Of a DNA stretch of 64,000 nt, positions 4,276 through 56,450 are shown piece after piece. The notes beneath the pieces are model-generated. The model had not been told where the DNA came from, made no database searches, and worked only from the letters and a program-made list of their open reading frames with translations. The DNA lies in the IMG/VR virus record IMGVR_UViG_2936984999_000007. The stretch is one strand, 5' to 3'. Every line of letters starts with the position of its first letter. The stretch's first letter is position 1. Position numbers and translations under genes: made by a program. This DNA comes from a virus.

Positions 4276-4887
4276 ATGAATGTTGAATTTGGAGATTTGA
4301 TGGGAATGAGCATGGTCGGAAGCATCATGTCCAGACTGCAGATAAAAGAGGATGACAGGATAAAGGGAATCAAAGCTGAAAAAGTTACCGTTCTGGTACC
4401 GAAAGCAATTTCTAATGGTAGTGTAAACCATCAAGAGTTGACAGAGTACGAGGTAAAGGAAGGAAGTGGACAATCACGGCTGACTGTTGTCGATGATATT
4501 GTTATAAAGCTGACAACACCTTATAGCTGTGCGCTGATTACGGAAGAAGATGAGGATTTGGTTGTTCCGTCCTATTGTATGATATGCAGAGATTTTGATA
4601 CGCAAGAAGTGGATTTAGACTATCTGGTTGGCTATCTGAATACTGAATATGCACGACAACTTCTTACGGCTGGGGTTGCTGCAACAACCAATTCGATGTT
4701 AAAGCCTAAAGATGTACATCGACTTCCAGTACCAATGCTTCCAATAGAGGAACAGAGATTGCTTGGGAGACTTTATAGGCTGAGTTCTGAGAAACAGTTG
4801 GTGTTGAAGCAGATGCTTACGAATGAAGAAGCGATGGCAGATAATCTTATAACATCAGCGATTTTGGGGGTGATGAAGGATGAATGA
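4276..4887 (+). CDS. type I restriction-modification specificity subunit-like protein (half-HsdS, single TRD)
   Basis: C-terminal conserved HsdS region: LDYLVGYLNTEYARQLL ... LPVPMLPIEEQRLLGRLYRL. The ORF-track start at 4216 lies inside the promoter, so the ATG at 4276 (RBS GGCGGTGAAAGT) is preferred. Confidence 0.6.
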   Translation: MNVEFGDLMGMSMVGSIMSRLQIKEDDRIKGIKAEKVTVLVPKAISNGSVNHQELTEYEVKEGSGQSRLTVVDDIVIKLTTPYSCALITEEDEDLVVPSYCMICRDFDTQEVDLDYLVGYLNTEYARQLLTAGVAATTNSMLKPKDVHRLPVPMLPIEEQRLLGRLYRLSSEKQLVLKQMLTNEEAMADNLITSAILGVMKDE

Positions 4888-6343
4888 TATAAAGTTGGTT
4901 GAAAGTAACGAACAGCCGATGAAAAATCATTTGCTATCGAGTCATGAAAGGATTCGATCAATATATTGGGCAATAGAATTAGAACTACGAGGCTGGGATA
5001 TTAGAAGTGCTTTTGTAGGGGGAACGGTATCTGCTATCGTGTATGTGACTTTTCTAAAATACATCTCAGACAGAAGAGATCAGTTAGGACTACAAGTTTC
5101 AGACTTGTATAGATATGATGCCTTGCTTAATCTATATCCAAATGTGGTTAACCAGCAAGAATTGTGCGAATACCTGGATGATGTGGAAAGACAACTGGGG
5201 CTTTCTCAGCGGCTGCTCCAAAATTTTGTGCTGGACATAAAAAGCCCTAATTTAGATACAAAATTTTTGAATGCTTTACACATTGCAAATGAATTGGACT
5301 TTAGAAGTAATGATATAGCACAAATTGAAATCGAAGAGCTTGTTCGTATTGTGGAAAAGGTGATTGAATCAGAAGGGAAGGTAAGTGGGCTTGTATATAC
5401 GCCTTGGGCTATTTCGACTTTAATGAGCGAAATCTGTCAGATTAAAGATGGAATGTCCGTATATGATCCGTGCGCTGGTTGTGGACTTTCTCTTATTCAA
5501 GCAATAAGAGGGAAAGACGTTAGCGTATTTGCACAGGAACAAAATATGCACATTGCTGCAATTCTTGAAATGCTACTTATTATGACTGGTGTGCGTAAGG
5601 GAGCAGTCCGGTGCGATGATTCGATTTGGCATCCATTAACGCAGACTTTCAATCAGAAGTTTGATTGTGTTATCAGTGAGCCGCCTTATATGAGGCCAGA
5701 AACATCCTATAGAATGTCGATTGATAAAAATCTGATTGGTCAAGTCTTATACTATCCGGACCAGAAGATTGAGGATACGTGGATTTTTATTAGACATATA
5801 GTGGCGTCTCTTAAAGAGAATGGCAAAGCAGCGGTACTAGTGCCAATGTCAATGCTAACTCGTGAAGGATCAGCTGCTGTCAGTAGGAAGAAACTGATAG
5901 CAGATGGTTATATAGATAGTGTTATTGAACTTCCGGCAAACGCATTCTCAAATCGGAATATGAAAACATCAATTCTAATTTTGCGTAAAGAAAGGCCGAT
6001 TCATAATATATATATGCTGGATCTGTCGAGAGGCTTATGGGACGAAAAGTGTAAGACTGGAAAAGATGGAATTGCCGAAATTACAGAGATGGTGCTTAAT
6101 CGTAAAATAGTTACGGGTGCGTCAGATATAGTAGAAACGGAAGAAATTGTTCAAAACGCTTATCAGTTAGGAGTTTCTCGTTATGTGCCGCAGGAAATTG
6201 ATGTGGAACAGTTTTTAGCAGATTCCGTAAAGCTGTATCGGACGGCAGATAAGCTGGAAGCAAAGTTTGAAAGATTATGCAGAGAGTTTAAAGAAGCAAT
6301 GGATGATTATAATGGATATTGCAATGAAAGAAAGTCGAAATGA
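4880..6343 (+). CDS. N6-adenine DNA methyltransferase, type I HsdM-like
   Basis: Motif I LVYTPWAISTLMSEICQ ... VYDPCAGCGLSL. Motif IV variant VISEPPYM (EPPY in place of NPPF). Overlaps the stop of the S gene. No R subunit in the window. Confidence 0.7.
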   Translation: MNDIKLVESNEQPMKNHLLSSHERIRSIYWAIELELRGWDIRSAFVGGTVSAIVYVTFLKYISDRRDQLGLQVSDLYRYDALLNLYPNVVNQQELCEYLDDVERQLGLSQRLLQNFVLDIKSPNLDTKFLNALHIANELDFRSNDIAQIEIEELVRIVEKVIESEGKVSGLVYTPWAISTLMSEICQIKDGMSVYDPCAGCGLSLIQAIRGKDVSVFAQEQNMHIAAILEMLLIMTGVRKGAVRCDDSIWHPLTQTFNQKFDCVISEPPYMRPETSYRMSIDKNLIGQVLYYPDQKIEDTWIFIRHIVASLKENGKAAVLVPMSMLTREGSAAVSRKKLIADGYIDSVIELPANAFSNRNMKTSILILRKERPIHNIYMLDLSRGLWDEKCKTGKDGIAEITEMVLNRKIVTGASDIVETEEIVQNAYQLGVSRYVPQEIDVEQFLADSVKLYRTADKLEAKFERLCREFKEAMDDYNGYCNERKSK

Positions 6344-6356
6344 AGGAGGAAACCGT

Positions 6357-6554
6357 ATGGAGAATGAAATCTATCCAATTATGACAGAGGATGGAAAAAT
6401 GTTTTGCAAGTGTCGTAATGATGGAACAACAGTTGAACTGATTGGAAAAAACTGCTCGATGTCTATACAGGAACTTGTATCAAAGGCTTCAAATCCGAAA
6501 ATGGCACAGCAGCGCCGGTTTAAGCGGAAAAATAGAACGACAAAACAAATTTAA
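6357..6554 (+). CDS. small hypothetical protein (65 aa)
   Basis: Strong RBS AGGAGGAAACCGT before the ATG at 6357. The ORF-track start at 6267 would overlap the MTase. Confidence 0.3.
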   Translation: MENEIYPIMTEDGKMFCKCRNDGTTVELIGKNCSMSIQELVSKASNPKMAQQRRFKRKNRTTKQI

Positions 6555-6740
6555 GAAAAAAATGCTAGGCAACCCTGCGATATGGCCACAGTGTGCAAGC
6601 GGATTATTTCCCCCGAAGCATTGGACTGTGCGGTTATAGAACCTAATCATATCGACAAATCAGAGGAAGTCAGTAGAACAAATACGAATAATTTCTTACT
6701 CTAGAGCGAACCGAGTGGGATGGAATCCACTAAGAGAAAA

Positions 6741-6835
6741 GCCGGGGTAGATAAAAGTTTTATGGTATAGCCTGTACTCAAATTATTTTGAGTCTTGCAG
6801 ACAGGAACTTTTATCTTCCTCGGCTTTTTTTGTTG
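6741..6835. terminator. large compound hairpin (about 23 bp imperfect stem with a nested hairpin) followed by T7
   Basis: AAAAGCCGGGGTAGATAAAAGTT ... AACTTTTATCTTCCTCGGCTTTTTTT, with inner stem CTCAAA/TTTGAG. Ends the S/M operon. Confidence 0.55.
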
Positions 6836-7007
6836 GTATCAGCATAGACAAAATATTTTAGCATAATCGTTAATATACTTAAATATAACAAAAACATACA
6901 GAAAAATATATATTTCGGCGCGAAAAACGCAATCTGTTTCGATGTCGAAAAAGACACAAACAGGATATTATAAAGTAGGGAACTACACAGGAGAGGAGGT
7001 GGATTGA

Positions 7008-7443: not shown

Positions 7444-7794
7444 GAGCGGGAAACATATCTTCAACAGTCTGGTTGAGGAAAGCCGTTGGTCATTTTGTTA
7501 TCATGTAATCAGTCCAAGGGACAAGCCCACAGAGTCAAATGAAAGCATCTGTCGGCAAGCCCCGGACAAATAAAAAAATATCGTAAGCCCGATTCTAGAG
7601 CAGGCGAAGGATACCATAGCAGAACTTCACAGAACAGCGATTTATTTGCTGGCTGTGGAGGTGTGCGGTTGGGATTATTCCTGCTGTCTCTGGAATCGGG
7701 CTTTTTTGTTTTATGCTCCTGCCAGATAGATCAGTGCCTCATCAGCATCCTGCTTTGGTATCTTTCCCTTTCAGAGTCCGGGGGAAAGGACAAA

Positions 7795-8553
7795 ACAATG
7801 ATGATGAACATGATGACTGGAGCAGTTGCAATCAATGGTGGCGTTGGTGTGATGGAGGTCCGCCAGCCGCAGGTAATGGAGAAAGCGGTACAGGACGCAG
7901 GACATATCGCCGCCGATATCGCGGAGAACGCACACATTACCTTACATGAACTGAAGGAAAAGATCGATGCAGTGGTGGAGAAAAAGCTGCCGAGTTTCAA
8001 GGCCCTCATGGAAATGAATCCGATGGCTGTAGCCCGGACGACTGTGAATGATGCTTCTCTGACTGTTTACCAGAACGGCTATGCAGTTTACGAGATGGAC
8101 GGCGCACACACGGTCATGGCAGTGGAGCGCTGCGGGGATTACCGCTATGACTTCACGGACGATACATATCAGGTAGTGCCGGCTGAGACTTTTGAGGAGA
8201 CTGAGTGGAGCGTACGTCTGCTCATGGAAGGGGAACGCCGGATGGAGCACAATCGGAATAATCGTACTGCTGAGACTGAAAATGTGTCCCTGGAATGCGA
8301 TGGCTCCGACTGGTCCGCAGCAGTTATGGTGGATTTTTTGGATGAGGATAATGCCGAGATGTTGGCAGATCAGGAACTTCGCCGTCTGTATGCAGCCATG
8401 AGTAAGCTGACCGAGCGTCAGACGGAAATCCTTCAGCTTTATTTTTATAAAGGTATGAACCAATACGAGATTGCAGAGGAACTTGGCATCTGCCAGCAGT
8501 CGGTTAACCGGATCATGAATCAGGCAGTAAAAAGGCTGAGAAAAAATTTCTAA
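7795..8553 (+). CDS. sigma-70 region-4 domain protein (phage sigma-factor-like regulator)
   Basis: C-terminus LTERQTEILQLYFYKGMNQYEIAEELGICQQSVNRIMNQAVKRLRK matches a sigma-70 r4 HTH. RBS GGGGGAAAGGA before ATGATGATG at 7795. Confidence 0.55.
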   Translation, partial: TMMMNMMTGAVAINGGVGVMEVRQPQVMEKAVQDAGHIAADIAENAHITLHELKEKIDAVVEKKLPSFKALMEMNPMAVARTTVNDASLTVYQNGYAVYEMDGAHTVMAVERCGDYRYDFTDDTYQVVPAETFEETEWSVRLLMEGERRMEHNRNNRTAETENVSLECDGSDWSAAVMVDFLDEDNAEMLADQELRRLYAAMSKLTERQTEILQLYFYKGMNQYEIAEELGICQQSVNRIMNQAVKRLRKNF

Positions 8554-46767: not shown

Positions 46768-47385
46768 ATGGCAAACAAGAAAAGCAACAAGGTCAAATTC
46801 GGCCTGAAAAACTGCCATTATGCAAAGGCAACCTTTGACGAAGATGGCAGTGTCACTTACGCAAAGCCGGTCCGCATCCCCGGTGCAGTCAGTCTTTCGA
46901 TGGATGCCAATGGCGAGATCGAGCCGTTCTATGCAGACAATATCGCCTACTATGTCGTGAATAACAACTCCGGCTACGAGGGGGATCTGGAGATCGCACT
47001 GATCCCGGAGAGCTTCCTCACGGATATCATGCACGAGGAGCTGGATGGCAACGGTGTGCTTGCTGAGAACGCCAACGTGGAACTGGAGCATTTCGCCTTC
47101 CTGTTCGAGTTCGATGGCGACCAGCGCCACATCCGTCATGTGCTGTACAACTGTGTGGCAAGTCGTCCGTCCATCGAGGGTGAGACCAATGAGGACAGCA
47201 AGGAAGTCAAGACGGATACCCTGAACCTGCAGGCAACCCCTCTGGCAAACGGTTATGTCAAGGCAAAGACCGGCACCAACACCACTGATGATGTCTATAA
47301 CAAGTGGTACGATGCGGTCTATGAGCCGCAAGCAGAAGCTGTGGACACCGAAGACACCAGCCATACCGAGGAACCGCAGGGCTAA
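46768..47385 (+). CDS. major tail protein (phi13-family-like)
   Basis: Position before the chaperone pair; size 205 aa. Confidence 0.6.
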   Translation: MANKKSNKVKFGLKNCHYAKATFDEDGSVTYAKPVRIPGAVSLSMDANGEIEPFYADNIAYYVVNNNSGYEGDLEIALIPESFLTDIMHEELDGNGVLAENANVELEHFAFLFEFDGDQRHIRHVLYNCVASRPSIEGETNEDSKEVKTDTLNLQATPLANGYVKAKTGTNTTDDVYNKWYDAVYEPQAEAVDTEDTSHTEEPQG

Positions 47386-47441
47386 GTGACCAATTCACAC
47401 CGCAGGGCTTCGGCTCTGCTTACATTATTATAAAGAGGTAT

Positions 47442-48275
47442 ATGACTATGAAGAAGATTTTTCCTTTGTTCGCAGTGATCATCGTTCTGGTGCTGGCTGT
47501 CTGCTCGTTCCACATCATCCCCACCGGTTACACGGGCGTGAAGACCAGCTTCGGTCAGATTCAGAAAACTACCATTCAGAGTGGCAAGCTCAACTTCTGC
47601 ATTCCCTTTGTGCAGAGTATCCACAAGGTCAACAACAAGCAGCAGGATAAACACATCGAGGCGCAGGTCTGGGGCGAAGCCTCCGACAAGACTCCTGTGT
47701 ATGCGGCTGATGTGATCGTGACCTATCAGGTGCTTCCTGAGAAGAGTGCATGGCTGTATGCGAATGTGTCCGACATCAAGAATCTGGTCGGTGACGAACT
47801 GGTGGCATCGGCAATCAAGTCTGCGATGGCAGAACTTGGTCCCAATGAGGTAACCAACCGTACCAAGATCGAGCCTCTGGCACAGCAAAAGCTGGCAGAG
47901 TCCCTTGTGCAGAAATACGGTGAGGACGTTGTATTCGTAAACAAGGTGGTCATCAACGACATGAATTTCGAGGATGCCTATAACGAAGCCATCCAGCAGA
48001 AGTCCATTGCACAGCAGAATGCAGATAAGCAGAAGATCGAGAATGAAGCCGCCATTGCCAAGGCAGAAGCGGATAAGCAGGTGGCGATCACCAATGCAGA
48101 GGCGGAAGCACAGAAAACTTCCATTGCCGCAGACGCACAGGCAGAGGCAAACCGCAAACTGGCAGAAAGCCTGTCCGATACGCTGATCGATTACCAGAAG
48201 GTTCAGAAGTGGGATGGAAAGCTTCCTACTGTGAGCGGCGGTAATGCACTGGTCAGCATTGACCCGGCAGAGTAA
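47442..48275 (+). CDS. SPFH/band-7 (prohibitin/stomatin-like) membrane protein inserted in the tail module
   Basis: N-terminal TM helix, then SPFH core (IIPTGYTGVKTSFGQIQ ...), then an A/E/K-rich coiled-coil tail. Confidence 0.7.
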   Translation: MTMKKIFPLFAVIIVLVLAVCSFHIIPTGYTGVKTSFGQIQKTTIQSGKLNFCIPFVQSIHKVNNKQQDKHIEAQVWGEASDKTPVYAADVIVTYQVLPEKSAWLYANVSDIKNLVGDELVASAIKSAMAELGPNEVTNRTKIEPLAQQKLAESLVQKYGEDVVFVNKVVINDMNFEDAYNEAIQQKSIAQQNADKQKIENEAAIAKAEADKQVAITNAEAEAQKTSIAADAQAEANRKLAESLSDTLIDYQKVQKWDGKLPTVSGGNALVSIDPAE

Positions 48276-48342
48276 GAAACACGATATACGGCAGGGCTTC
48301 GGCTCTGCCAATTTTACATGAAATTTATGGAGGATTACGATT

Positions 48343-48723
48343 ATGGCAGTTACAAAGAAAATCGAGATCGATGGCAAGGAAGTCACCTTTAAGGCAAGTG
48401 CCGCTGTGCCTCGCCTGTACCGCATCAAGTTCGGTCGTGACATCTACAAAGACCTGCGCCAGTTGGAAAAGAGCGTGGGGGAGAATGATGAGGACAATTC
48501 CAACCTCGACCTGTTCAGTTTGGAGATGTTTGAGGACTTGGCATGGCTGATGGCCCGTCATGCAGACCCGGCAAAGGTGCCGGACAGCCCGGAGGAGTTC
48601 CTGGACCAGTTCAACACCTTCTCTATTTATCAGATCCTGCCCCAGCTGATCGAACTGTGGGGTCTGAATGTGCAGACCGAGGTAGAATCCAGAAAAAACC
48701 TCGCAAAAGTGAGCGGGAAATGA
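48343..48723 (+). CDS. tail assembly chaperone (G-like)
   Basis: Canonical position between the major tail protein and TMP; partner -1 frame ORF overlaps. Confidence 0.7.
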   Translation: MAVTKKIEIDGKEVTFKASAAVPRLYRIKFGRDIYKDLRQLEKSVGENDEDNSNLDLFSLEMFEDLAWLMARHADPAKVPDSPEEFLDQFNTFSIYQILPQLIELWGLNVQTEVESRKNLAKVSGK

Positions 48724-48884
48724 CCACCCCGCTCTTTCTGCTGCGCTGTGTGCAGCTCGGTATCAGCATCGCCGATCTCGACCTGCTGACCATCGGGTTG
48801 GTCAATGATATGTTCACGGAACGGCAGAACGACGACTATCCGTACAAAGAGCTGGCTTCGCAAAGTGATTTTGACAAATTTTGA
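48343..48884 (+). CDS. tail assembly chaperone -1 frameshift extension product (G-T-like)
   Basis: Slippery heptamer A-AAA-AAC at 48693-48699 in the zero frame. The -1 frame continues to 48884 (KKPRKSEREMTTPLF ...). Confidence 0.5.
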
Positions 48885-48948
48885 CAGAATAAAACTCGAC
48901 GAGCGTGCATATATTAAACATGAAATAAGCACGCCCGTTTGATTTTGC

Positions 48949-48977
48949 TTGACTACCGTGCTTATTTCGATTACAAT
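48949..48977 (+). promoter_or_regulatory. promoter TTGACT-17-TACAAT for the abiE cassette, embedded in inverted repeats
   Basis: Hairpins GCGTGC ... GCACGC and CCGTGCTTAT ... ATAAGCACGG flank it. Confidence 0.5.
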
Positions 48978-49002
48978 ATAAGCACGGAAGGATGGTGATT
49001 CT

Positions 49003-49587
49003 ATGAATGAGATGACAAGATTAGTTCAAAATCATGATTACCTTACGCCGAGAATTGCGGGAAAATCTGGAATTTCAAAATTTAAGTTTTACAAATATGT
49101 TCGAGAAAACGGATTGGAGCCGGTCAGCCGTGGTGTTTATTCTACGGGAGCGGATTGGGTCGATGAGTTGTATGTGCTTCATAAGAGATGCCCGAATGCT
49201 GTTTTTTCACATGACGAGGCTTTTTATTATCATGGTCTGACAGACAGAGAACCGTTTGTCCACACACTTACCATATACAGCGGTTACAATGCACATCGGC
49301 TTATAGCGGATGGAAGTTGTAAAGTATATACGGTAAAACGGGAATTACTGGATGTCGGAAAGATCATTGTGAAAGACAACGATGGGAACATGATTCCAAT
49401 GTATGACTTGGAACGAACGATTTGTGATCTGATGAGAAGCCGGAGCAGTATTGAAGCACAGGATTTCAATTCCGTTCTGAAGACATATGTTTCCAGAAGA
49501 GACAAGGACCTAAATCGACTCATGGAATATGCAAAGCTGTTTCGGGTTGATAATGTGATCCGCAGATATATGGGGGTATTATTGTAA
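49003..49587 (+). CDS. abiEi: AbiEi-family antitoxin/transcriptional regulator (type IV TA / abortive infection)
   Basis: N-terminal AbiEi_4-like wHTH (LTPRIAGKSGISKFKFYKYVRENGLEPVSRGVYS). Confidence 0.65.
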   Translation: MNEMTRLVQNHDYLTPRIAGKSGISKFKFYKYVRENGLEPVSRGVYSTGADWVDELYVLHKRCPNAVFSHDEAFYYHGLTDREPFVHTLTIYSGYNAHRLIADGSCKVYTVKRELLDVGKIIVKDNDGNMIPMYDLERTICDLMRSRSSIEAQDFNSVLKTYVSRRDKDLNRLMEYAKLFRVDNVIRRYMGVLL

Positions 49588-49588
49588 A

Positions 49589-50428
49589 ATGCAGCTGACA
49601 CCAGAACAGGTTAAGGGAAGAATTAAGAATGTGGCAAAGGAAAACAAGGCAGATGCCAGAACGCTCATGCGGATCTATATGATGGAGCGTTTCCTTGAGA
49701 GAGTTGCCAGTTCGCAGTACAAAGATAATTTTATCATCAAAGGCGGGATGCTGGTGACAGCAATGGTTGGCGTAGCATTGCGGTCTACGATGGATATCGA
49801 TACGAGCATAAAAAATCAGAATCTGTCGGCAGAAGATGCCAGACGGATTGTGGATGAAATCAAGGACATCGATCTTGGCGATGGAGTGACCTTTGAGGTT
49901 AAGGAAGTTTCCAATATCATGGATGAGATGGAGTATCCGGGTATTCGTTTTACCATGAATGCCGTGATGGGAAAACTTGTGACACCTATGAAAATTGATA
50001 TTTCTACAGGAGATGTTATTACGCCGAGAGCTATCGAGTATAATTATAAATTGCTCTTGGATGACCGTTCCATCAGCCTTTGGTCATATAATTTGGAAAC
50101 AATTCTGGCAGAAAAACTTCAGACGGTCCTTGCAAGAGGTCTTTTGAATACCCGAATGAGAGACTTCTATGACATCAAGACCCTGCTTTCTATTTACGAG
50201 CAGGACATAGATGCTGATGTGCTGAAAAAGGCATTTGAGGCAACCTGTAAGAAAAGAAGCACCGAAAATCTGAAAGAGGAAGCACCCAAAATTATGGCTG
50301 CCGTCAGTGATGACGCACAGTTACATACACTTTGGAAGTCCTACCAGAAGAAATATCCGTATGCTGCTGATATCAGCTATGAGGATATTATGGAGAGCAC
50401 AATGCTCTTATGGAGTAAAATTCAATAA
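49589..50428 (+). CDS. abiEii: AbiEii nucleotidyltransferase toxin (DUF1814)
   Basis: FIIKGGMLV ... RSTMDIDTS ... nucleotidyltransferase motifs. 1 nt gap after abiEi. Terminator 50441-50470. Confidence 0.75.
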   Translation: MQLTPEQVKGRIKNVAKENKADARTLMRIYMMERFLERVASSQYKDNFIIKGGMLVTAMVGVALRSTMDIDTSIKNQNLSAEDARRIVDEIKDIDLGDGVTFEVKEVSNIMDEMEYPGIRFTMNAVMGKLVTPMKIDISTGDVITPRAIEYNYKLLLDDRSISLWSYNLETILAEKLQTVLARGLLNTRMRDFYDIKTLLSIYEQDIDADVLKKAFEATCKKRSTENLKEEAPKIMAAVSDDAQLHTLWKSYQKKYPYAADISYEDIMESTMLLWSKIQ

Positions 50429-50440
50429 TCGGTAGCAACC

Positions 50441-50470
50441 CCGTTGGAGAAATCTGACGGGGTATTTTTA
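50441..50470 (+). terminator. intrinsic terminator ACCCCGT-N13-ACGGGGT + ATTTTTA
   Basis: Ends the abiE unit. Confidence 0.55.
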
Positions 50471-50540
50471 TACCCATTTTTAGCCTGTCTGTCCCGTGCA
50501 GATGGGCTTTTTTCATGCCCACAAGGAGGTGGTTACGCAA

Positions 50541-53500
50541 ATGGCATCCAGAATCCAGGGCATCACCGTTGAGATCGGCGGCGATACCACAAAGCTCTCC
50601 AAAGCACTGGAAGGTGTAAACAAGTCAATCAAGGGGACGCAGTCCGGACTGAAGGATGTCAACAAACTCCTGAAACTGGATCCCTCGAATACAGAACTGG
50701 TCGTCCAGAAGCAGAAGATGCTGAAGGATGCCATTCAAGCAACCAAGGAAAAGCTGGCAACTCTGAAGACTGCGGCACAGCAGGCGAATGAGCAGCTTGC
50801 AAATGGTGAGATCACCCAGCAGCAGTACGATGCTCTCCAGCGCGAGATCGTGGAAACCGAACAGAATCTGCGGTCATTACAGGACCAGGCGGCTACTACC
50901 AATGCGACGCTTGCCAAGATTGATGAAGCCGGAGAAAAGCTCCAGAACATTGGATCTTCTGTGGAGAATGTCGGTAAGAAGTTCCTGCCGGTGACTGCCG
51001 CTGTAACGGGTCTTGGCACTGCCGCAGTGAAGACCGCAGCCGACTTCGATTCTGAGATGAGCAAGGTTTCTGCCATTTCCGGTGCAACAGGGGATGACTT
51101 TGACCAGCTTCGTGCAAAAGCCCGTGAAATGGGTGCAAAGACAAAGTTCTCCGCATCCGAGGCGGCCTCGGCGATGGAGTACATGGCCATGGCCGGATGG
51201 AAAACGGGGGACATGCTGAATGGTATCGAAGGTATCATGAACCTCGCGGCGGCATCCGGTGAAGACCTCGCTACGACTTCGGATATCGTCACCGATGCCC
51301 TTACCGCTTTCGGTTTGTCTGCGGCGGATTCCGGGCATTTTGCAGATATCCTTGCAGCCGCTTCCTCCAATGCGAACACCAATGTCAGCATGATGGGCGA
51401 GACGTTCAAGTACTGTGCGCCTATCGCCGGTGCGCTTGGGTTCTCGGCAGAGGATACCGCAGAAGCCATCGGTCTGATGGCAAACAGTGGTATCAAGGCT
51501 TCTCAGGCTGGTACTTCCCTTCGTACCATCATGAACAACCTTTCCGGTGAAGTGACCTTTGTGGGCAAGAACATCGGTGAGGTCACGATTGCGACCAGCA
51601 ACGCAGATGGCAGCATGAGAAGCCTGAACGACATCCTTGCGGACTGCCGTGTGGCATTCTCCGGGTTGTCGGAATCTGAGAAAGCTGCCAACGCAGAGGC
51701 ACTGGTCGGCAAGAATGCCATGTCCGGCTTCCTTGCCCTGATGAATTCCAGCGAGACGGACATCAACAAACTGCGTGGAGCCATTGAAAACTGCGATGGC
51801 GCATCCGAGAGCATGGCAGAGACCATGCAGGACAACTTAAATGGTCAGCTCACCATCCTGAAATCTCAGCTGGAGGAGCTGGCTATTTCTTTTGGTGATA
51901 TCCTGATGCCGACCATCCGCAAGATCGTATCAGCCGTGCAGCAGTTCGTGGATAAACTGAACAGCATGGATGAAAGTACCAGGGAAACGATCATCAAAAT
52001 CGGACTTCTGGCAGCATCCATCGGTCCGCTGCTCATTGTGCTGGGCAAGACCATATCGACCGTCGGCACAGCGATGCGGGGGTTCAGTTCTCTTGCAAAG
52101 GGTGTCCGGCTTCTCATCACCCATGTGGGCAGTGCCAGCGGTGTGTTCAGCAAGCTGGGTGTGGTTCTGGGTGGTCTGTCCGGGCCGGTCGTAGCAGTGG
52201 TGGCGGTCATCGGCACACTGGTGGCGGCGTTCATGAACCTCTGGAACACCAACGAGGAGTTCCGTGCTGCCATTACCGGTATCTGGAACGACATCGTTTC
52301 CAAGGTGAAAGGCTTCTGCGACCAACTGACACAGCGGATCAACGGGCTGGGCTTTGATTTTAAGGATGTCACTGAGGTACTGAAAGCAGTATGGGATGGC
52401 TTCTGTCAGGTGCTTGCACCGCTGTTTGAGGGAGCATTCCAGAATATTTCGACCATCCTTGGCGTTGTTCTGGATACCTTACTGGGTCTGTTCGATGTCT
52501 TTTCCAATGTGTTCTCCGGCAACTGGAGCGGTGCATGGGAAGCGGCAAAGGGCATCTTCTCCAGTATCTGGGATGGCGTGAAGTCTGTATTCTCTACGAC
52601 TCTTACCGCATTAAAGAGCGCACTGGATGTGTTCCTTGGTCTGTTCGGTACGGACTGGCAGACTGTCTGGGGCAGTATCAAGAACTTCTTCGAGATCGTG
52701 TGGAGCGGAATCAGCAGCTTCTTTTCAAACACAGTTTCTGCTATCCAAAGTGTGGCAACGACTGTGTTCACTGCAGTTTCGAGCTTCTTTACGACTGTCC
52801 TTACGAGTATCCAGACGACCTTCAGCACCATCTGGACTGCCATTTCTACAGCAGTTTCGTCTGTGTTGAATACGATCCATACCACGGTGACAACTGTGTG
52901 GACGGCGATCTCGACTGCGATTTCTACGGTCATGAACACCATCAGCACGACAATCACTTCGGTGTGGAATGGCATCTACAACACCATGAAACCTCTGTTG
53001 GATGCGTTCAAGTATCTGTTTGAGACCATCTGGCAGGCAATCCAGATCCTGATCGGCGCAGCACTGACCGCAATCCAGACGAAGATCACTTCCATCTGGA
53101 ACGCTATCGTCGCCTTTGTGACTCCGATCCTGACTGGATTGCAGACGACTTTCTCTACGGTTTGGTCTGCAATCCAAACAGCCATCTCCACGGTGCTGAC
53201 TGCGATCCAGACTGCAGTGACGACGGTGTGGAACGCCATTGTGTCGTTCCTGTCTCCGCTGCTGACTGGCATCCAGACCCGGATGAGTACGGCATGGAAT
53301 GCGATCAAGACGGTCATCTCGACGGTCCTTTCTGCAATCCAGTCCAAGGTTTCTTCCATCTGGAGCGCCATCAGCAGCAAGATATCCGGTGTGGTAAACA
53401 GCATCAAATCGGTGGTTTCTTCCGGCTGGAATGCTATGAAATCCACGGTATCGTCCCTCAGTAACAGCATCAAGAGCGCAGCGACCACAGCTTTTAACTC

Positions 53501-56450
53501 GATGAAATCCGGGATTTCCTCTACGATCTCCGGCATTAAGACTACCATTACGAATGGCTTTAACAGTGCAGTCTCATTTATCAAGGGTCTGGCTGGACAG
53601 GCATTCTCGTGGGGCTCTGACATGATCGGCAACATTGTGTCCGGTATCCAGTCGAGGATTCAGGATGTGGCAAGTGCCGTATCGGGAGTGGCGGACCGTA
53701 TCCGTTCCTTCCTGCACTTCTCCGTGCCGGACGAAGGACCGTTGGCGGATATGGAAAGCTGGATGCCGGACTTCATGCAGGGACTGGCAAACGGTATCAC
53801 GACCAACACCAGCCTTGTAACTGCGGCGGCAGAGAACCTGTCCACCACGCTGTCTACCTCCATCACCAACTCCATGAGGGGAGTGGAGCAGGCATACAGT
53901 AAGAGCTGGGCAGCCATCAGCCAGACGGTAAGAACCGGAACGGCAGGTGTGAGTGCCGCGATGAGATCCGCATGGAGTTCCATTACGGCCAGTACCACAA
54001 GCACATGGAACAGCATCAAGACCACCACCCAGACCAGCTTTGCGGCGGTGAAGACCAATGTGACCTCTGCGACGGCAGCAGTGAAAACGTCAATGACCAG
54101 TGCTTGGAATGCGGTGAAGTCGCTGACAATGACCAGCTGGAACGGAATCAAGAGCGTTATTACTACAGCATGGAATGGGATCAAGTCACTGACCACCTCG
54201 GCGACCGCTTCTGTCAAAACGTCAATGACCAGCGCGTGGAATGCGGTGAAAACTCTGACGAATACCAGTTGGAATGGTATCAAAACAGTCATCACGACAG
54301 CGTGGAGCAGTATCAAGTCTCTTACAACTTCCTCTGTATCCGCAGTTCGCAGTACGGTCACAAGCGGCTGGAACACACTGAAATCCACCACGACCTCTGC
54401 TTTCAACAGCATCAAGTCCACGGTGTCTTCGGCAATGTCCGGCCTGCGCAGCACGGTTTCTTCCGGTGTTGCAAGTATCAGGAGCAGCTTTAACTCGCTC
54501 GGTTCGATTGCTTCTTCGGCATACCGCTGGGGCGCAGATATCTGTTCCCAGATGGCGGCAGGTGTCCGGGCAGCAGCCGGTTCCGTGATCGCAGCGGCAG
54601 AAAATGTCGCAAGCAGGGTCAGAAGTCTGCTGCATTTCTCTGTGCCGGACGAAGGACCTCTGTCCGACGCAGATACCTATATGCCCGACTTCATGAAGCT
54701 GCTGGCGACCGGCATTAAGAAAAATGTCAAGTCGGTGGTGAAAGCCGTGCAGGGACTTGCCGGGTCTATGAGCAGCAACCTGACAACCCCAGTAGATTCT
54801 CTGGGCGACTGGATGGATTCCGTGGTCGGCAGTTTTGCTACCACGATCAAGAAAAGCCAGAGCGGTATCGGCAGTGCTGCAAGGGATGTGGGCAGCGGTA
54901 TCCAGACCCAGCTGATGTCCGGGCTTTCCGGTGTGAAGACACAGTTCCAGCAGCTCTGGACTGACCTGCAGGGCATCACCAAAACTGCAGTCGGCAGTAT
55001 GAGCGATGAAGTGAAGCAGGGCTTTACGGATATGAAGGATTCCATTGGAGAGCTGAGTTCACAGACCAGTTCTCTTGGGAATGCGATCCGCAGCCTTGGC
55101 GATACCTTCAACTCGGATTTTCTAAAGAGCCTGGGCAACGGCATCAACAAAGTCGGTGACACGGTCAATACGGTCACCGGTCTTGTGGACAAGCTCGGCT
55201 CCATGAAGAACACCATCGGAAATCTCGGAAGTACGTTGCAGAACCTCGGTAATGTCCTTGGCTCCGAAAACGGAGGCGGTCTGCTGTCCAACCTCGGCAG
55301 TTTCCTGTCGAAGATCGGCAGCGCAGATGGCGGTCAGATCGTGTCGAACTTTGGCAACCTGATCTCCGGGCTGACCTCCAAAATGGGTGGTCTGGGAGAG
55401 GGAATCTCCGGCATCATCTCGAAGCTGGGAAGCCTTGGTTCCAGCGGTGGGGGAATCCTGTCGAAGCTGGGCGGGCTGCTTTCCGGCGTAGTGTCGAAAA
55501 TCGGCGGCTTAGGCGGCAGTCTTTCCGGCATCGTATCGTCTATCGGTTCTTCGCTGGGCGGTATTGCCGGGACAGTCGGGACAACGCTTTCCGGTCTGCT
55601 CGGTTCTGTGGGTACGACCGTATCTGGTTTGGCGGCAGGTGCGGGTACGGCTCTTGCAGGCGTAGCAAGCTCCGCAGGTGGTTTCCTCGCATCCGCAGGC
55701 ACAGCACTTGCTGGTCTGGCGGGTCCTGCAGGTATCGCAGTGGCAGCAGTTGGCGGCATCGGTCTTGGACTGACCGCTCTCTGGAAAAACTGCGATGGCT
55801 TCCGGGAGGAAGTCACAAATATTTGGAACAAGGTTACTTCGGTGTTTTCCAAGGGCGTGTCGGCCATCAAGAACGGTATCTCCAATGCAGCATCTGCTAT
55901 TGGCAATGTGGCATCGTCCATCTGGGGCGGTATCAAGAATGTGGCTTCCTCGGCAGTCAGCTGGGGCAAGGACATCGTTGGCGGTATCGCAGGAGGTATC
56001 AAGAAGGGCGTGGGCTGGGTCGGCAGTGCAGTCAAGAGTGTGGCAAGGGGCATCCGCTCGTTCCTGCACTTTTCGGTGCCGGACGAGGGTCCGTTGTCTG
56101 ATGCAGACACCTATATGCCGGATTTCATGAAGCTGCTGACTGGCGGCATCAAGAAAGGCGAGGGTGGACTGATCAGCCAGATCAAGTCGATGGCAGCAAA
56201 GGTACAGCAGGGAATTGAGGGCATCAGTTCCTTCAGCCTGCCGGAACTGACCCTGCCGCACTTCGATGGCTCTGGCTGGAACTTCCCGCAGGCAGCTCTG
56301 GCCGGAGGCGGTACCACCCGGACGACCAACCTTGGCGGCGTATATATCACGGTCAATGGCTATAACGCCCGGAACGATGATGAACTGGCACAGACTGTTG
56401 CCGATAAGATCAACGGCATGATCCACGAGGATGATTCAGTCTTCAAGTAA
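50541..56450 (+). CDS. tail tape measure protein (TP901-family core), ~1969 aa
   Basis: RBS AAGGAGGTGG. TMP core SASEAASAMEYMAMAGWKTGD. Long 11-residue-periodic Thr/Ser/Trp repeat tracts and three copies of a ~30 aa RSFLHFSVPDEGPL ... MPDFM motif. Confidence 0.85.
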   Translation: MASRIQGITVEIGGDTTKLSKALEGVNKSIKGTQSGLKDVNKLLKLDPSNTELVVQKQKMLKDAIQATKEKLATLKTAAQQANEQLANGEITQQQYDALQREIVETEQNLRSLQDQAATTNATLAKIDEAGEKLQNIGSSVENVGKKFLPVTAAVTGLGTAAVKTAADFDSEMSKVSAISGATGDDFDQLRAKAREMGAKTKFSASEAASAMEYMAMAGWKTGDMLNGIEGIMNLAAASGEDLATTSDIVTDALTAFGLSAADSGHFADILAAASSNANTNVSMMGETFKYCAPIAGALGFSAEDTAEAIGLMANSGIKASQAGTSLRTIMNNLSGEVTFVGKNIGEVTIATSNADGSMRSLNDILADCRVAFSGLSESEKAANAEALVGKNAMSGFLALMNSSETDINKLRGAIENCDGASESMAETMQDNLNGQLTILKSQLEELAISFGDILMPTIRKIVSAVQQFVDKLNSMDESTRETIIKIGLLAASIGPLLIVLGKTISTVGTAMRGFSSLAKGVRLLITHVGSASGVFSKLGVVLGGLSGPVVAVVAVIGTLVAAFMNLWNTNEEFRAAITGIWNDIVSKVKGFCDQLTQRINGLGFDFKDVTEVLKAVWDGFCQVLAPLFEGAFQNISTILGVVLDTLLGLFDVFSNVFSGNWSGAWEAAKGIFSSIWDGVKSVFSTTLTALKSALDVFLGLFGTDWQTVWGSIKNFFEIVWSGISSFFSNTVSAIQSVATTVFTAVSSFFTTVLTSIQTTFSTIWTAISTAVSSVLNTIHTTVTTVWTAISTAISTVMNTISTTITSVWNGIYNTMKPLLDAFKYLFETIWQAIQILIGAALTAIQTKITSIWNAIVAFVTPILTGLQTTFSTVWSAIQTAISTVLTAIQTAVTTVWNAIVSFLSPLLTGIQTRMSTAWNAIKTVISTVLSAIQSKVSSIWSAISSKISGVVNSIKSVVSSGWNAMKSTVSSLSNSIKSAATTAFNSMKSGISSTISGIKTTITNGFNSAVSFIKGLAGQAFSWGSDMIGNIVSGIQSRIQDVASAVSGVADRIRSFLHFSVPDEGPLADMESWMPDFMQGLANGITTNTSLVTAAAENLSTTLSTSITNSMRGVEQAYSKSWAAISQTVRTGTAGVSAAMRSAWSSITASTTSTWNSIKTTTQTSFAAVKTNVTSATAAVKTSMTSAWNAVKSLTMTSWNGIKSVITTAWNGIKSLTTSATASVKTSMTSAWNAVKTLTNTSWNGIKTVITTAWSSIKSLTTSSVSAVRSTVTSGWNTLKSTTTSAFNSIKSTVSSAMSGLRSTVSSGVASIRSSFNSLGSIASSAYRWGADICSQMAAGVRAAAGSVIAAAENVASRVRSLLHFSVPDEGPLSDADTYMPDFMKLLATGIKKNVKSVVKAVQGLAGSMSSNLTTPVDSLGDWMDSVVGSFATTIKKSQSGIGSAARDVGSGIQTQLMSGLSGVKTQFQQLWTDLQGITKTAVGSMSDEVKQGFTDMKDSIGELSSQTSSLGNAIRSLGDTFNSDFLKSLGNGINKVGDTVNTVTGLVDKLGSMKNTIGNLGSTLQNLGNVLGSENGGGLLSNLGSFLSKIGSADGGQIVSNFGNLISGLTSKMGGLGEGISGIISKLGSLGSSGGGILSKLGGLLSGVVSKIGGLGGSLSGIVSSIGSSLGGIAGTVGTTLSGLLGSVGTTVSGLAAGAGTALAGVASSAGGFLASAGTALAGLAGPAGIAVAAVGGIGLGLTALWKNCDGFREEVTNIWNKVTSVFSKGVSAIKNGISNAASAIGNVASSIWGGIKNVASSAVSWGKDIVGGIAGGIKKGVGWVGSAVKSVARGIRSFLHFSVPDEGPLSDADTYMPDFMKLLTGGIKKGEGGLISQIKSMAAKVQQGIEGISSFSLPELTLPHFDGSGWNFPQAALAGGGTTRTTNLGGVYITVNGYNARNDDELAQTVADKINGMIHEDDSVFK
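52590..53590 (+). repeat. 33 bp (11 aa) periodic repeats within the TMP gene (a second tract lies near 53990-54490)
   Basis: Reiterated TxxxTxxWxAI units in the translation. Confidence 0.5.

What the first reader, a model, noticed from the sequence alone, without database searches (positions are those of the whole stretch)
48885..50470. Self-contained AbiEi/AbiEii abortive-infection cassette inserted between the tail chaperone and the tape-measure gene
The cassette has its own promoter (TTGACT-17-TACAAT inside inverted repeats), abiEi (wHTH antitoxin/regulator), abiEii (DUF1814 nucleotidyltransferase toxin) and a clean intrinsic terminator. It is dropped into the middle of the late tail operon.

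This is a classic moron architecture: a prophage-encoded anti-phage (superinfection exclusion) system expressed independently of late transcription. Together with the SPFH gene 0.6 kb upstream, it makes the segment between the major tail protein and the TMP a defense and accessory hot-spot.
Basis: partly seen in the sequence, partly recalled or inferred. Interest (0 to 1): 0.6.

Follow-up and report, generated by a model that had tools for sequence, protein, structure and literature searches.

The report
AbiE toxin–antitoxin cargo in phage tail hot-spot
A gut-bacterium prophage carries a complete, self-regulated AbiE toxin–antitoxin (abortive-infection) gene pair wedged between two tail genes, at a spot where closely related phages carry at least eight other toxin or defence gene sets instead; the gene pair itself is a known kind, and the swap-site is the more useful result.

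Summary
Window 48885-50470 holds abiEi (49003-49587) and abiEii (49589-50428), preceded by TTGACT-17-TACAAT inside a perfect 9-N12-9 palindrome and followed by a strong hairpin plus T-run. GC falls from about 0.55 to about 0.42 over exactly this stretch.

AbiEii passes Pfam PF08843 (2e-41) and keeps all NTase motifs and the phospho-acceptor Thr. AbiEi matches the solved S. agalactiae AbiEi (1e-17) and PADLOC (1e-62), but fails Pfam AbiEi_4 (14.7 bits, cut-off 25).

Described Ca. Heliusvirales relatives have MTP-G-T-TMP with 14-18 nt gaps. Among 61 IMG/VR relatives about 95% identical in the flanks, the T-TMP junction carries nine alternative cargos or is empty: DUF3990/DUF3791, ParE/Phd-like, AbiD, AbiE, abiEi with a replaced toxin, PDC-S27, YoeB/RelB and SoFic.

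- The second downstream hairpin is backbone.
- IR1 also sits beside unrelated cargos.
- The SPFH site is a single-cargo site.

The same cassette family, with a co-varying operator, occurs on ICE-like elements and chromosomes. Both genes are under strong purifying selection (dN/dS 0-0.18).

It is a new member of known kinds (AbiE, moron, phage defence hot-spot). Expression in lysogens and anti-phage activity are untested.

The parts
46768..47385 (+). Major tail protein gene (upstream landmark of the tail operon)
   Evidence: Pfam PF06488 at 1.7e-07; PHROG 88 'major tail protein' at 1e-58.
47442..48275 (+). SPFH/Band_7 membrane protein gene: a separate accessory insertion between MTP and G, with its own hairpin at 48290-48309
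   Evidence: Pfam Band_7 at 2e-17; PHROG 200. Absent from L001-L008. Present in 70/77 close relatives, cleanly absent in 2, internally deleted in 5. Hairpin -15.7 kcal/mol.
48343..48723 (+). Tail assembly chaperone G (by synteny), with an in-frame slippery heptamer A_AAA_AAC at 48693-48699
   Evidence: Lies between MTP and TMP. Heptamer in the zero frame conserved in 8 of the 9 phages compared, with A_AAA_AAA in L006 at the same position. No Pfam hit; PHROG 709 has unknown function.
48699..48884 (+). T extension (-1 frame; also callable as a 54-aa ORF from ATG 48720). The last ~8 codons (48857-48884) co-vary with the cargo
   Evidence: The -1 frame extension of about 61 codons ending ..DFDxF is present in all relatives. 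Homology among cargo alleles ends at ...AAAGAGCTGGC.
48899..48938 (.). IR1: imperfect palindrome (core CGTGCATAT-N12-ATAAGCACG, 48904-48933). An upstream copy of the operator unit, homologous to the left-border hairpin of other cargo alleles
   Evidence: folds at -15.5 kcal/mol, z = -4.1.
48949..48977 (+). Sigma-70-type promoter-like site TTGACT-17-TACAAT
   Evidence: 10/12 match. The -35 and -10 hexamers are conserved in 38 distinct abiEi upstream regions from unrelated contexts.
48957..48986 (.). IR2: perfect palindrome CGTGCTTAT-N12-ATAAGCACG spanning the -10 hexamer. Inferred AbiEi operator
   Evidence: Found at the same register (right arm ending about 16 nt before the ATG) in 49/70 homologous loci. 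Arms co-vary at 4 of 9 positions, with 0/500 shuffles reaching the observed score.
49003..49587 (+). abiEi: COG5340-type wHTH antitoxin and predicted autorepressor (RBS GGAAGGA at 48986-48992)
   Evidence: PADLOC AbiEi 1e-62; PDB 6Y8Q 9.9e-18 and 9HLO_A 1e-17; Pfam AbiEi_4 only 14.7 bits, below cut-off; dN/dS 0.02-0.18 with 29/29 distinct alleles intact.
49589..50428 (+). abiEii: DUF1814 nucleotidyltransferase toxin
   Evidence: Pfam PF08843 2.1e-41; PADLOC 1.8e-99; PDB 9HLO_B 2.2e-48. G52/G53, R65, T67, D69, D71, K176, R183, D192 and D195 conserved. dN/dS 0-0.09 with 20/20 distinct alleles intact.
50438..50473 (+). Cassette terminator: 11-bp stem hairpin plus AUUUUUAU
   Evidence: -18.3 kcal/mol, z = -3.9. 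Also follows the plus-strand PDC-S27 cargo in L081, with two compensatory stem changes.
50482..50514 (+). Backbone hairpin plus U-run immediately upstream of the TMP RBS. This is the right border of the hot-spot and is not part of the cassette
   Evidence: Conserved with every cargo type and in the empty site L037; -15.4 kcal/mol, z = -4.1.
50541..56450 (+). Tape measure protein gene (likely start ATG 50541 after AAGGAGG; the ORF listing gives an upstream GTG at 50496)
   Evidence: Pfam PhageMin_Tail 3e-52. Start inferred from the sequence and from conservation of ATGGCATCCAGAATCCAGGGC in all alleles.

Best explanation
The segment is an autonomous AbiE module: a DUF1814 nucleotidyltransferase toxin, AbiEii, with its COG5340 antitoxin/repressor, AbiEi. 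It is carried as a moron in a cargo hot-spot of a temperate Ca. Heliusvirales siphophage integrated in a Blautia-like Lachnospiraceae genome.

Shown here:
- It is extra DNA of foreign composition, lying exactly between the G/T chaperone genes and the TMP gene.
- Both genes are intact and under purifying selection, and keep the residues needed for toxicity and for neutralisation.
- The same promoter-palindrome-abiEi-abiEii unit exists on ICE-like elements and in plain chromosomal sites, so it does not depend on the phage late operon for its signals.

Inferred by analogy with S. agalactiae AbiE and M. tuberculosis MenAT:
1. In the lysogen a sigma-70 promoter drives a bicistronic transcript.
2. 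AbiEi binds the 9-N12-9 palindrome that covers the -10 hexamer (and probably IR1, 53 bp upstream) and represses its own operon.
3. AbiEi also binds AbiEii and triggers its auto-phosphorylation on Thr67, keeping it inactive.
4. When an incoming phage disturbs this balance, or when the prophage is lost, active AbiEii adds nucleotides to tRNA 3' ends and stops translation. That either aborts the infection or arrests cells that lost the element.
5. The cassette terminator and the backbone hairpin keep lysogenic transcription from running into the TMP gene. Late transcription must read through both.
For: Family identity. Catalytic and phospho-acceptor residues: set against the residues defined in PMC3985639 and preprint 10.64898/2026.01.19.700257.

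Insertion:
- Described relatives have MTP-G-T-TMP with 14-18 nt gaps.
- L037 is an empty site of 104 nt.
- GC drops by about 0.13.
- Neither protein matches any PHROG.

Autonomy:
- Homologous cassettes with the same -35/palindrome/-10/RBS layout occur on relaxase-bearing elements, between housekeeping genes, and in other phages.
- The palindrome arms co-vary.
- The terminator stem shows compensatory changes and a stable fold.

Function retained:
- dN/dS is 0-0.18 and all alleles are intact.
- AbiE is kept in a decayed prophage remnant.

Prophage state:
- The exact protein lies on a 1.49 Mb genome contig and in Blautia assemblies.
- Heliusvirales are 97.9% temperate.

Defence context: alternative cargos at the same junction match AbiD, SoFic, PDC-S27 and PDC-M13.
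Against: - No expression data. The promoter scan as a whole is not enriched over shuffles.
- Pfam AbiEi_4 is below threshold, and NCBIfam gives nothing for either protein.
- The AbiEi loop shown to be needed for antitoxicity in S. agalactiae (D-E-I) is D-R-E here.
- Phage defence has been shown for only some AbiE systems. S. agalactiae AbiE gave no protection against 32 coliphages in E. coli.
- AbiE also stabilises plasmids and ICEs (abstract of PMC11062541), so defence is not the only plausible role.
- Operator layout differs from S. agalactiae: 9-N12-9 here against 11-N27-11 there.
Confidence: 0.78

Rival explanations
1. The cassette works mainly as an addiction or stabilisation module for the prophage, causing growth arrest in cells that lose it, rather than as an anti-phage defence. 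It is retained because it cannot easily be lost. This is compatible with the same molecular mechanism.
For: - AbiE stabilises plasmids (PMC3985639) and an ICE in S. suis (PMC11062541 abstract).
- The same cassette family sits on relaxase-bearing mobile elements.
- It persists in a decayed prophage remnant.
- The commonest alternative cargos are classical TA pairs (ParE/Phd-like, YoeB/RelB).
- S. agalactiae AbiE gave no phage protection in E. coli.
Against: - Other cargos at the same junction are single-gene Abi or defence proteins that are not TA addiction modules (AbiD, SoFic, PDC-S27).
- L. lactis AbiE and some relatives do give phage resistance.
- Rapid cargo turnover among about 95% identical phages looks more like diversifying selection on defence than like simple addiction.
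Confidence: 0.3
2. The cassette, or at least AbiEi, serves the phage as counter-defence. Phage-supplied AbiEi neutralises AbiEii toxins of AbiE systems resident in the host or in competing prophages.
For: - Five of 61 close relatives keep promoter plus abiEi but have lost abiEii.
- AbiEi acts by binding and inducing auto-phosphorylation of the toxin, a mechanism that could in principle work in trans.
- AbiE homologues are common in the same host clades.
Against: - In the window abiEii is intact, has every catalytic residue and is under purifying selection.
- In the abiEi-only alleles another toxin-like cargo follows directly downstream, so abiEi may simply be kept as the regulated promoter module.
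- Cross-neutralisation between AbiE pairs has not been tested here.
Confidence: 0.1
3. The pair is expressed only as part of the late tail operon and acts during lytic growth (host shut-off). The promoter-like and terminator-like sequences are incidental.
For: - Same strand as the tail operon.
- The promoter scan alone is not statistically enriched.
- No expression data.
Against: - The promoter, palindrome and RBS are conserved with the cassette in non-phage contexts where no late operon exists.
- A strong terminator with compensatory changes follows the cassette.
- Many alternative cargos at the junction lie on the opposite strand with their own terminator, which cannot be late-operon expression.
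Confidence: 0.05
4. The cassette is a decaying, non-functional relic of horizontal transfer.
For: One relative (Aequitasia, L100) has a split abiEii. The AbiEi loop differs from the model system.
Against: - 29/29 distinct abiEi alleles and 20/20 distinct abiEii alleles are intact, with dN/dS 0-0.18 at dS up to more than 1.
- All catalytic residues are kept.
- The exact protein is indexed in 1214 blocks of the collection.
Confidence: 0.02

Closest known systems
Streptococcus agalactiae / Lactococcus lactis AbiE (AbiEi-AbiEii; PDB 6Y8Q, 9HLO), and the related M. tuberculosis MenA/MenT systems
   Same: - Bicistronic layout with the antitoxin first.
- DUF1814 NTase toxin with motifs I-IV and the phospho-acceptor Thr in motif II.
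- Two-domain wHTH antitoxin.
- Inverted repeats over the promoter.
- Found on mobile elements.
   Different: - Only 33% (toxin) and 27% (antitoxin) identity over the aligned regions.
- Antitoxin loop D-R-E instead of D-E-I.
- Operator is a 9-N12-9 palindrome over the -10 hexamer plus a second copy 53 bp upstream, not the 11-N27-11 arrangement.
- Pfam AbiEi_4 below threshold.
- Carried inside a phage tail operon.
Phage morons in tail morphogenesis regions, e.g. HK97 gp15 (Cumby et al. 2012; position recalled from my own knowledge, paper not held) and P-FimU between the tail tube and chaperone genes of P. aeruginosa F10-like phages (PMC12952977)
   Same: - Extra gene(s) between tail genes that are adjacent in related phages.
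- Own signals.
- Presumed lysogenic expression protecting against other phages.
   Different: - Those are single small proteins acting at the envelope or pilus (superinfection exclusion). Here the cargo is an intracellular two-gene toxin-antitoxin/Abi system.
- The site is multi-allelic, with at least nine cargos.
Defence-system hot-spots in temperate phages and satellites (P2/P4 hot-spots, Rousset et al. 2022, cited; mycobacteriophage prophage-mediated defence, Dedrick et al. 2017)
   Same: - Conserved flanking genes with rapidly exchanged cargo.
- Cargo enriched in known and candidate defence systems.
- Cargo GC differs from the backbone.
   Different: - Different phage group (gut Ca. Heliusvirales of Lachnospiraceae).
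- Different position (between the chaperone frameshift product and the TMP gene).
- Bounded by two conserved hairpins.
- Not mentioned in the Heliusvirales description.

Membership tests
AbiE (AbiEi/AbiEii) toxin-antitoxin / abortive infection system | Toxin with a DUF1814/AbiEii nucleotidyltransferase domain above the curated threshold | tested here: met
   Pfam PF08843: 142.8 bits against a cut-off of 22.5, covering profile positions 1-236 of 238. PADLOC AbiEii 1.8e-99. PDB 9HLO_B 2.2e-48.
AbiE (AbiEi/AbiEii) toxin-antitoxin / abortive infection system | NTase motifs I-IV whose mutation abolishes toxicity (GG; R..D.D; K......R; +DxxD) | tested here: met
   G52/G53, R65, D69/D71, K176/R183 and R191-D192-F-Y-D195 align with the S. 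agalactiae residues mutated in PMC3985639.
AbiE (AbiEi/AbiEii) toxin-antitoxin / abortive infection system | Phospho-acceptor Ser/Thr in motif II (T65 in S. agalactiae), used for antitoxin-induced neutralisation | tested here: met
   T67 aligns with T65. Phosphorylation itself was not testable.
AbiE (AbiEi/AbiEii) toxin-antitoxin / abortive infection system | Upstream COG5340-type AbiEi antitoxin (wHTH N-domain plus C-domain) | tested here: met
   PDB 6Y8Q 9.9e-18 over residues 10-190. PADLOC AbiEi 1e-62. However, Pfam AbiEi_4 gives only 14.7 bits against a cut-off of 25, and NCBIfam gives nothing.
AbiE (AbiEi/AbiEii) toxin-antitoxin / abortive infection system | Antitoxin loop D85-E86-I87 required for stable complex formation and antitoxicity | tested here: inconclusive
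   The window has T-D-R-E-P where S. agalactiae has T-D-E-I-P: the Asp is kept and the other two differ. Single substitutions had no effect in the model system.
AbiE (AbiEi/AbiEii) toxin-antitoxin / abortive infection system | Bicistronic operon with the antitoxin first, and inverted repeats overlapping the promoter for autoregulation | tested here: met
   1-nt gap between the genes. Palindrome over the -10 hexamer. Conserved and co-varying in 38 distinct homologous upstream regions. Binding by AbiEi was not testable.
AbiE (AbiEi/AbiEii) toxin-antitoxin / abortive infection system | Toxicity of AbiEii, neutralisation by AbiEi, and phage resistance by abortive infection | not testable with these tools
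   Needs cloning, kill-rescue assays and phage challenge.
Phage moron | Extra DNA between two genes that are adjacent in related phages | tested here: met
   L001-L003 have T and TMP 14-18 nt apart. The empty site L037 has 104 nt.
Phage moron | Own promoter and terminator, and base composition unlike the neighbours | tested here: met
   Sequence-level only. The signals are conserved with the cassette in non-phage contexts.
Phage moron | Expressed from the repressed prophage | not testable with these tools
   No transcript data available.
Phage-encoded defence hot-spot | Conserved flanks with many alternative cargos among close relatives | tested here: met
   Flanks are 88-100% identical. There are nine cargo classes plus an empty site among 61 IMG/VR loci, and further cargos in distant relatives (GNAT, glyoxalase, HNH).
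Phage-encoded defence hot-spot | Cargo enriched in known or candidate defence systems | tested here: met
   AbiE, AbiD 3e-62, SoFic 1e-118, PDC-S27 3e-56, PDC-M13 5e-31, plus the type II TA pairs ParE/Phd-like and YoeB/RelB.
Tail assembly chaperone G/GT pair (flanking genes) | Two overlapping ORFs between MTP and TMP, joined by a programmed -1 frameshift at a slippery heptamer | tested here: met
   A_AAA_AAC lies in the zero frame about 25 nt before the G stop, followed by a -1 extension of about 61 codons. It is conserved in 8 of the 9 phages compared, and L006 has A_AAA_AAA.
Tail assembly chaperone G/GT pair (flanking genes) | Match to an annotated chaperone family | tested here: not met
   No Pfam or NCBIfam hit. 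PHROG 709 and PHROG 3033 are 'unknown function'.

The most novel reading that the evidence does not exclude
The T-TMP junction may be a structured cassette-exchange site rather than a passive gap. It would be bounded on the left by the AbiEi-operator palindrome, which persists as a perfect hairpin of about 19 bp even beside unrelated minus-strand cargos, and on the right by a backbone hairpin. The promoter-operator-abiEi unit would then act as a portable, self-limiting expression platform. In 5 of 61 relatives abiEii has been swapped for other toxin-like cargos (HTH plus a DUF6036 NTase, or Phd/ParE), leaving an orphan AbiEi. That orphan could both regulate the new cargo and neutralise AbiEii toxins of rival prophages in trans, acting as a counter-defence.
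Probability: 0.15. Interest if true: 0.7.

Novelty: new member of a known kind. Interest (0 to 1): 0.45.

Why it matters
The AbiE pair itself adds little, because AbiE is among the commonest defence/TA systems and is known on mobile elements. The useful result is the context.

- **A swap-site in a common gut phage.** A very prevalent human-gut phage lineage has a sharply bounded site in its tail operon. The exact AbiEii protein is indexed in 1214 blocks of the collection, and the host is Blautia or another Lachnospiraceae. Phages about 95% identical exchange at least nine toxin or defence cargos at this site.
- **A source of candidates.** Sites like this have been productive for finding new defence systems. 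This one already contains uncharacterised candidates: DUF3990/DUF3791 sets with extra small ORFs, an HTH plus DUF6036 NTase pair, and unannotated small ORFs in distant relatives.
- **A test of defence versus addiction.** Near-isogenic prophages differing only in cargo can be compared in gut Firmicutes.
- **An operator to test.** The conserved, co-varying 9-N12-9 operator gives a concrete, testable DNA target for this AbiEi clade.

Tried and rejected
- **Family libraries.** Pfam (E <= 0.01) and NCBIfam gave nothing for AbiEi, and NCBIfam gave nothing for AbiEii. At E <= 10, Pfam AbiEi_4 appears only below threshold. PHROGs gave no hit for either AbiE protein, and only 'unknown function' for G and T.
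- **RNA families.** Rfam at E <= 1 over 47300-50700 gave only a chance-level hit: 16.6 bits against a gathering score of 290.8.
- **DNA searches.** The cassette found nothing in 50,697 GenBank phage records, and only short 69-84% matches to Lactobacillus plasmid abiEii genes.
- **'Both IRs are AbiE-specific.'** Rejected: an IR1-like hairpin flanks ParE, AbiD and DUF3990 cargos.
- **The opposite idea, that the palindrome is a backbone element unrelated to AbiE.** Also rejected: it travels with abiEi to ICE-like and chromosomal sites and co-varies.
- **'Both downstream hairpins belong to the cassette.'** Rejected.
- **'The MTP-G (SPFH) site is part of a multi-cargo hot-spot.'** Rejected.
- **Literature.** The HK97 gp15 paper could not be read, so its gene position is from memory only.
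- **Not done.** I did not run structure prediction, because sequence matches to solved AbiE structures were already decisive.
- **Caveats on my own numbers.** The co-variation count used upstream regions pre-selected for at most 1 arm mismatch (49 of 70), so its 'percent paired' is partly by construction. Loci L009-L012 were fetched by exact AbiEii identity and were left out of the cargo frequencies.
Full report
**1. What is there**

The window between the major tail protein gene (46768-47385) and the tape measure gene (ATG 50541, ending at 56450) contains, in order and on the + strand:
- an SPFH/Band_7 gene (47442-48275);
- a 126-codon ORF (48343-48723);
- a -1-frame extension ending at 48884;
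- a 118-nt non-coding leader;
- two ORFs of 194 and 279 codons, separated by one base (49003-49587 and 49589-50428);
- two hairpins, each followed by a T-run.

The leader holds TTGACT-17-TACAAT (48949-48977, 10/12). It also holds two copies of a 9-N12-9 inverted repeat, at 48904-48933 (one mismatch) and 48957-48986 (perfect). The second copy spans the -10 hexamer. The repeat motif occurs nowhere else in the 64 kb, against 0.02 matches expected by chance. GC falls from 0.55-0.58 to 0.38-0.44 across about 48800-50450. One caveat applies: the promoter scan by itself is not enriched over shuffled sequence (7 sites against 5.9 +/- 2.2).

**2. Identity of the two proteins**

*AbiEii (279 aa).*
- It matches Pfam PF08843 end to end (142.8 bits against a cut-off of 22.5), PADLOC AbiEii (1.8e-99) and the solved S. 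agalactiae toxin 9HLO_B (2.2e-48).
- Mapped through that alignment, every residue whose mutation abolishes toxicity in S. agalactiae is conserved: motif I GG, R63, D67, D69, K173, R180 and D192 (PMC3985639). The window equivalents are G52/G53, R65, D69/D71, K176/R183 and D192/D195.
- The threonine that is auto-phosphorylated when the antitoxin binds (T65; preprint 10.64898/2026.01.19.700257) is also conserved, as T67 here.

*AbiEi (194 aa).*
- It matches the solved AbiEi 6Y8Q over residues 10-190 (9.9e-18) and PADLOC AbiEi (1e-62).
- It has no NCBIfam hit, and reaches only 14.7 bits on Pfam AbiEi_4 against a cut-off of 25.
- The antitoxin loop needed for stable complex formation (D-E-I) reads D-R-E here.

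**3. It is an insertion, and the site is a hot-spot**

The nearest described phages are Ca. Heliusvirales from human faeces, at 68-72% nucleotide identity. Three of them have MTP-G-T-TMP with only 14-18 nt between T and TMP, and no SPFH gene. Five others carry different genes at the T-TMP junction: a GNAT acetyltransferase, a glyoxalase/bleomycin-resistance protein, a reverse-strand HNH endonuclease, and unannotated small ORFs.

A scan of IMG/VR with the G protein returned 331 relatives. The best 80 have G at least 98% identical. Their MTP, SPFH, G/T and TMP 5' regions are 87-100% identical to the window, yet the T-TMP interval ranges from 104 nt to 3.5 kb.

Clustering and family searches give the following counts for the 61 loci that were picked by G alone and hold both anchors:

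| Cargo at the T-TMP junction | Loci |
|---|---|
| DUF3990 + DUF3791 sets (PADLOC PDC-M13) | 19 |
| ParE/RelE-like + Phd-like | 17 |
| Abi_2 (PADLOC AbiD, 3e-62) | 9 |
| AbiEi + AbiEii | 5 |
| abiEi followed by something else (HTH + DUF6036 NTase, or Phd + ParE; one of the latter also with a group II intron) | 5 |
| ATPase_2/DUF234 (PDC-S27) | 3 |
| YoeB + RelB | 1 |
| Fic (SoFic, 1e-118) | 1 |
| Empty | 1 |

All cargos have GC of 0.38-0.45.

It is not right for the SPFH position. That site is SPFH-present in 70 of 77 loci, cleanly absent in 2 and internally deleted in 5, with no alternative cargo.

**4. Boundaries and the two corrections**

*Left border.* Homology among all cargo alleles stops inside the last eight codons of T, after ...AAAGAGCTGGC at about 48856. 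Each cargo supplies its own version of the conserved C-terminus ..DFDxF*.

*Right border.* Homology resumes at about 50482, with the hairpin GCCTGTCTG...CAGATGGGC plus a U-run. This hairpin is present with every cargo and in the empty site. It is therefore a backbone element in front of the TMP ribosome-binding site, not part of the cassette. Only the first hairpin (50438-50463; -18.3 kcal/mol) belongs to the cargo. The same terminator follows the other plus-strand cargo (PDC-S27, L081), with two compensatory stem changes.

*IR1.* An IR1-like palindrome with the same core, CGTGCTTAT-N12-ATAAGCACG, sits directly after the T stop in the ParE, AbiD and DUF3990 alleles. There it is extended to a perfect stem of about 19 bp, followed on the minus strand by UUUUUG (-34.6 kcal/mol, z = -10.5). 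That makes it the likely terminator of those minus-strand cargos.

**5. Is the palindrome the AbiEi operator or a phage element?**

AbiEi homologues of 78-86% identity were traced to their contigs. They lie in four settings:
- another phage at the same junction;
- a roughly 4.5 kb prophage remnant flanked by pyrI/pyrB;
- an element with a relaxase, MobC, ArdC and a serine recombinase;
- a chromosomal site between a GH42 beta-galactosidase gene and an ion-channel gene.

All of them keep IR2 with the -35 and -10 hexamers, and the phage and ICE-like copies also keep IR1 53 bp upstream.

A scan of one genome per species returned 79 loci, in Blautia, Coprococcus, Lachnobacterium, Allofournierella, Ruminococcus, Erysipelotrichaceae and others. 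About ten of these are in a phage-tail context. In 49 of 70 abiEi upstream regions a 9-N12-9 palindrome lies in the same register, with -35 TTGACt three bases before the left arm, TAyAAT at the end of the spacer, and the right arm ending about 16 nt before the ATG. This holds down to about 45% AbiEi identity.

In 38 distinct sequences the arms change symmetrically, for example CTTGCTAAT/ATTAGCAAG and TGTGCTAAT/ATTAGCACA. Four of nine positions change on both sides, in 17 cells, and 0 of 500 shuffles reach the observed score. The caveat is that I pre-selected sequences with at most one arm mismatch.

The palindrome therefore belongs to the cassette and behaves like a dimer-binding operator. By analogy with AbiEi binding to inverted repeats at PabiE in S. 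agalactiae, I infer that it is the AbiEi operator. The IR1-like hairpin beside other cargos is most simply a remnant of an earlier AbiE allele that was kept and lengthened as a terminator.

The ICE-like copy also carries 24 nt identical to the 3' end of the phage T gene. This points to transfer of the unit between the phage hot-spot and the ICE.

**6. Function retained**

All 29 distinct full-length abiEi alleles and all 20 distinct abiEii alleles are intact, with dN/dS of 0-0.18 at dS up to more than 1. The exact AbiEii protein is indexed in 1214 blocks of the collection and lies on a 1.49 Mb genome contig, so the phage is integrated. Heliusvirales are 97.9% temperate, with Blautia among the top predicted hosts.

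**7. Mechanism (inferred)**

- In the lysogen the cassette is transcribed from its own promoter.
- AbiEi represses that promoter through IR2 (and IR1), and keeps AbiEii inactive by inducing its auto-phosphorylation on T67.
- When this control fails, AbiEii nucleotidylates tRNA 3' ends and stops translation (MenT3 work, PMC7450476 abstract).
- The outcome could be abortive infection, post-segregational arrest, or both. The sequence does not decide between them. S. agalactiae AbiE gave no protection against 32 coliphages in E. coli, whereas lactococcal AbiE and some relatives do protect. AbiE also stabilises plasmids and ICEs.
- The company kept at this junction (AbiD, SoFic, PDC-S27) tilts me towards defence.

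**8. Flanking genes**

G and T have no annotated family: Pfam and NCBIfam give nothing, and PHROG 709 and 3033 are of unknown function. Three things support their identity as tail assembly chaperones:
- the position between MTP and TMP;
- an in-frame A_AAA_AAC heptamer, conserved in 8 of the 9 phages compared, with A_AAA_AAA in L006 at the same position;
- a -1 extension of about 61 codons, present in all nine.

**9. Comparison and novelty**

The cassette is a new member of the AbiE family in a moron setting. Morons within tail operons are known: P-FimU and HK97 gp15 (cited; its position is from my memory). Defence hot-spots in temperate phages are also known (Rousset 2022, cited). I found no description of this junction as a hot-spot. 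The Heliusvirales paper does not mention toxins, hot-spots or the tape measure gene, and targeted searches gave nothing closer.

**Verdict:** the finding is real and correctly interpreted. It is ordinary as a gene pair and moderately interesting as an entry point to a multi-allelic defence/TA site in a very common gut phage.

Noticed in passing
window 4001-7000: A second low-GC island (0.38-0.39 against 0.52-0.55). It holds an unannotated 223-aa ORF (4216-4887) and an N6_Mtase/Eco57I-like methyltransferase (4880-6343), next to a divergent HTH_3 repressor-like gene (3437-4000, minus strand). It may be another cargo site near the lysogeny module.
   Followed up: partly
window 50541-56450: The tape measure protein is about 1970 aa, roughly twice the length in relatives L001-L003 (about 970-1060 aa). 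It contains three copies of a motif ...R(S/F)(F/L)LHFSVPDEGPL(A/S)D...MPDFM..., which suggests internal duplication.
   Followed up: no
L075, L089, L092, L013, L042 (T-TMP interval): These are 'orphan abiEi' alleles. The promoter, IR2 and an intact abiEi are kept, but abiEii is replaced exactly at the gene junction. The replacement is either an XRE-HTH protein plus a DUF6036 nucleotidyltransferase, or a Phd/ParE pair.
   Followed up: partly
L042, interval positions about 2054-3343: A group II intron reverse transcriptase/maturase (RVT_1 + GIIM) is inserted downstream of the abiEi + Phd + ParE cargo, making the interval 3.5 kb.
   Followed up: no
L093, L095, L096: A prophage remnant of about 4.5 kb (connector genes, MTP, G, T, AbiEi, AbiEii) is embedded between host genes (VanZ; pyrI/pyrB). 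The TMP and the rest of the tail are gone. AbiE remains intact in several samples.
   Followed up: partly
L097-L099, about 130 nt upstream of abiEi: A cassette copy on a relaxase/MobC/ArdC/serine-recombinase element carries TTTTGACAAATTTTGACAGAATA, identical to the last codons and stop of the phage T gene. This indicates exchange of the unit between the phage hot-spot and an ICE/IME.
   Followed up: partly
window 50482-50514 and the same position in all relatives: A conserved terminator-like hairpin plus U-run lies inside the late tail operon, directly before the TMP ribosome-binding site, even in the empty site. This implies attenuation or a need for read-through or antitermination of late transcripts.
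   Followed up: partly
window 47442-48309: The SPFH/Band_7 gene with its own hairpin lies between MTP and G. It is absent from distant Heliusvirales, present in 70/77 close relatives, cleanly absent in 2 and internally deleted in 5, so it is a stable single accessory gene that sometimes decays.
   Followed up: yes
window 7663-8553: A phage-encoded sigma-70 region-4 protein (296 aa) lies in the early or middle region. It could direct late transcription and may bear on whether late transcripts pass the hairpins in the tail operon.
   Followed up: no
L014, L016, L025 (T-TMP interval): The commonest cargo class is a minus-strand set of DUF3791 (81 aa), DUF3990 (190-193 aa) and one or two further small ORFs (83-118 aa) with no family. 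It matches only candidate PADLOC systems (PDC-M13/M10) and comes in three sequence variants.
   Followed up: partly
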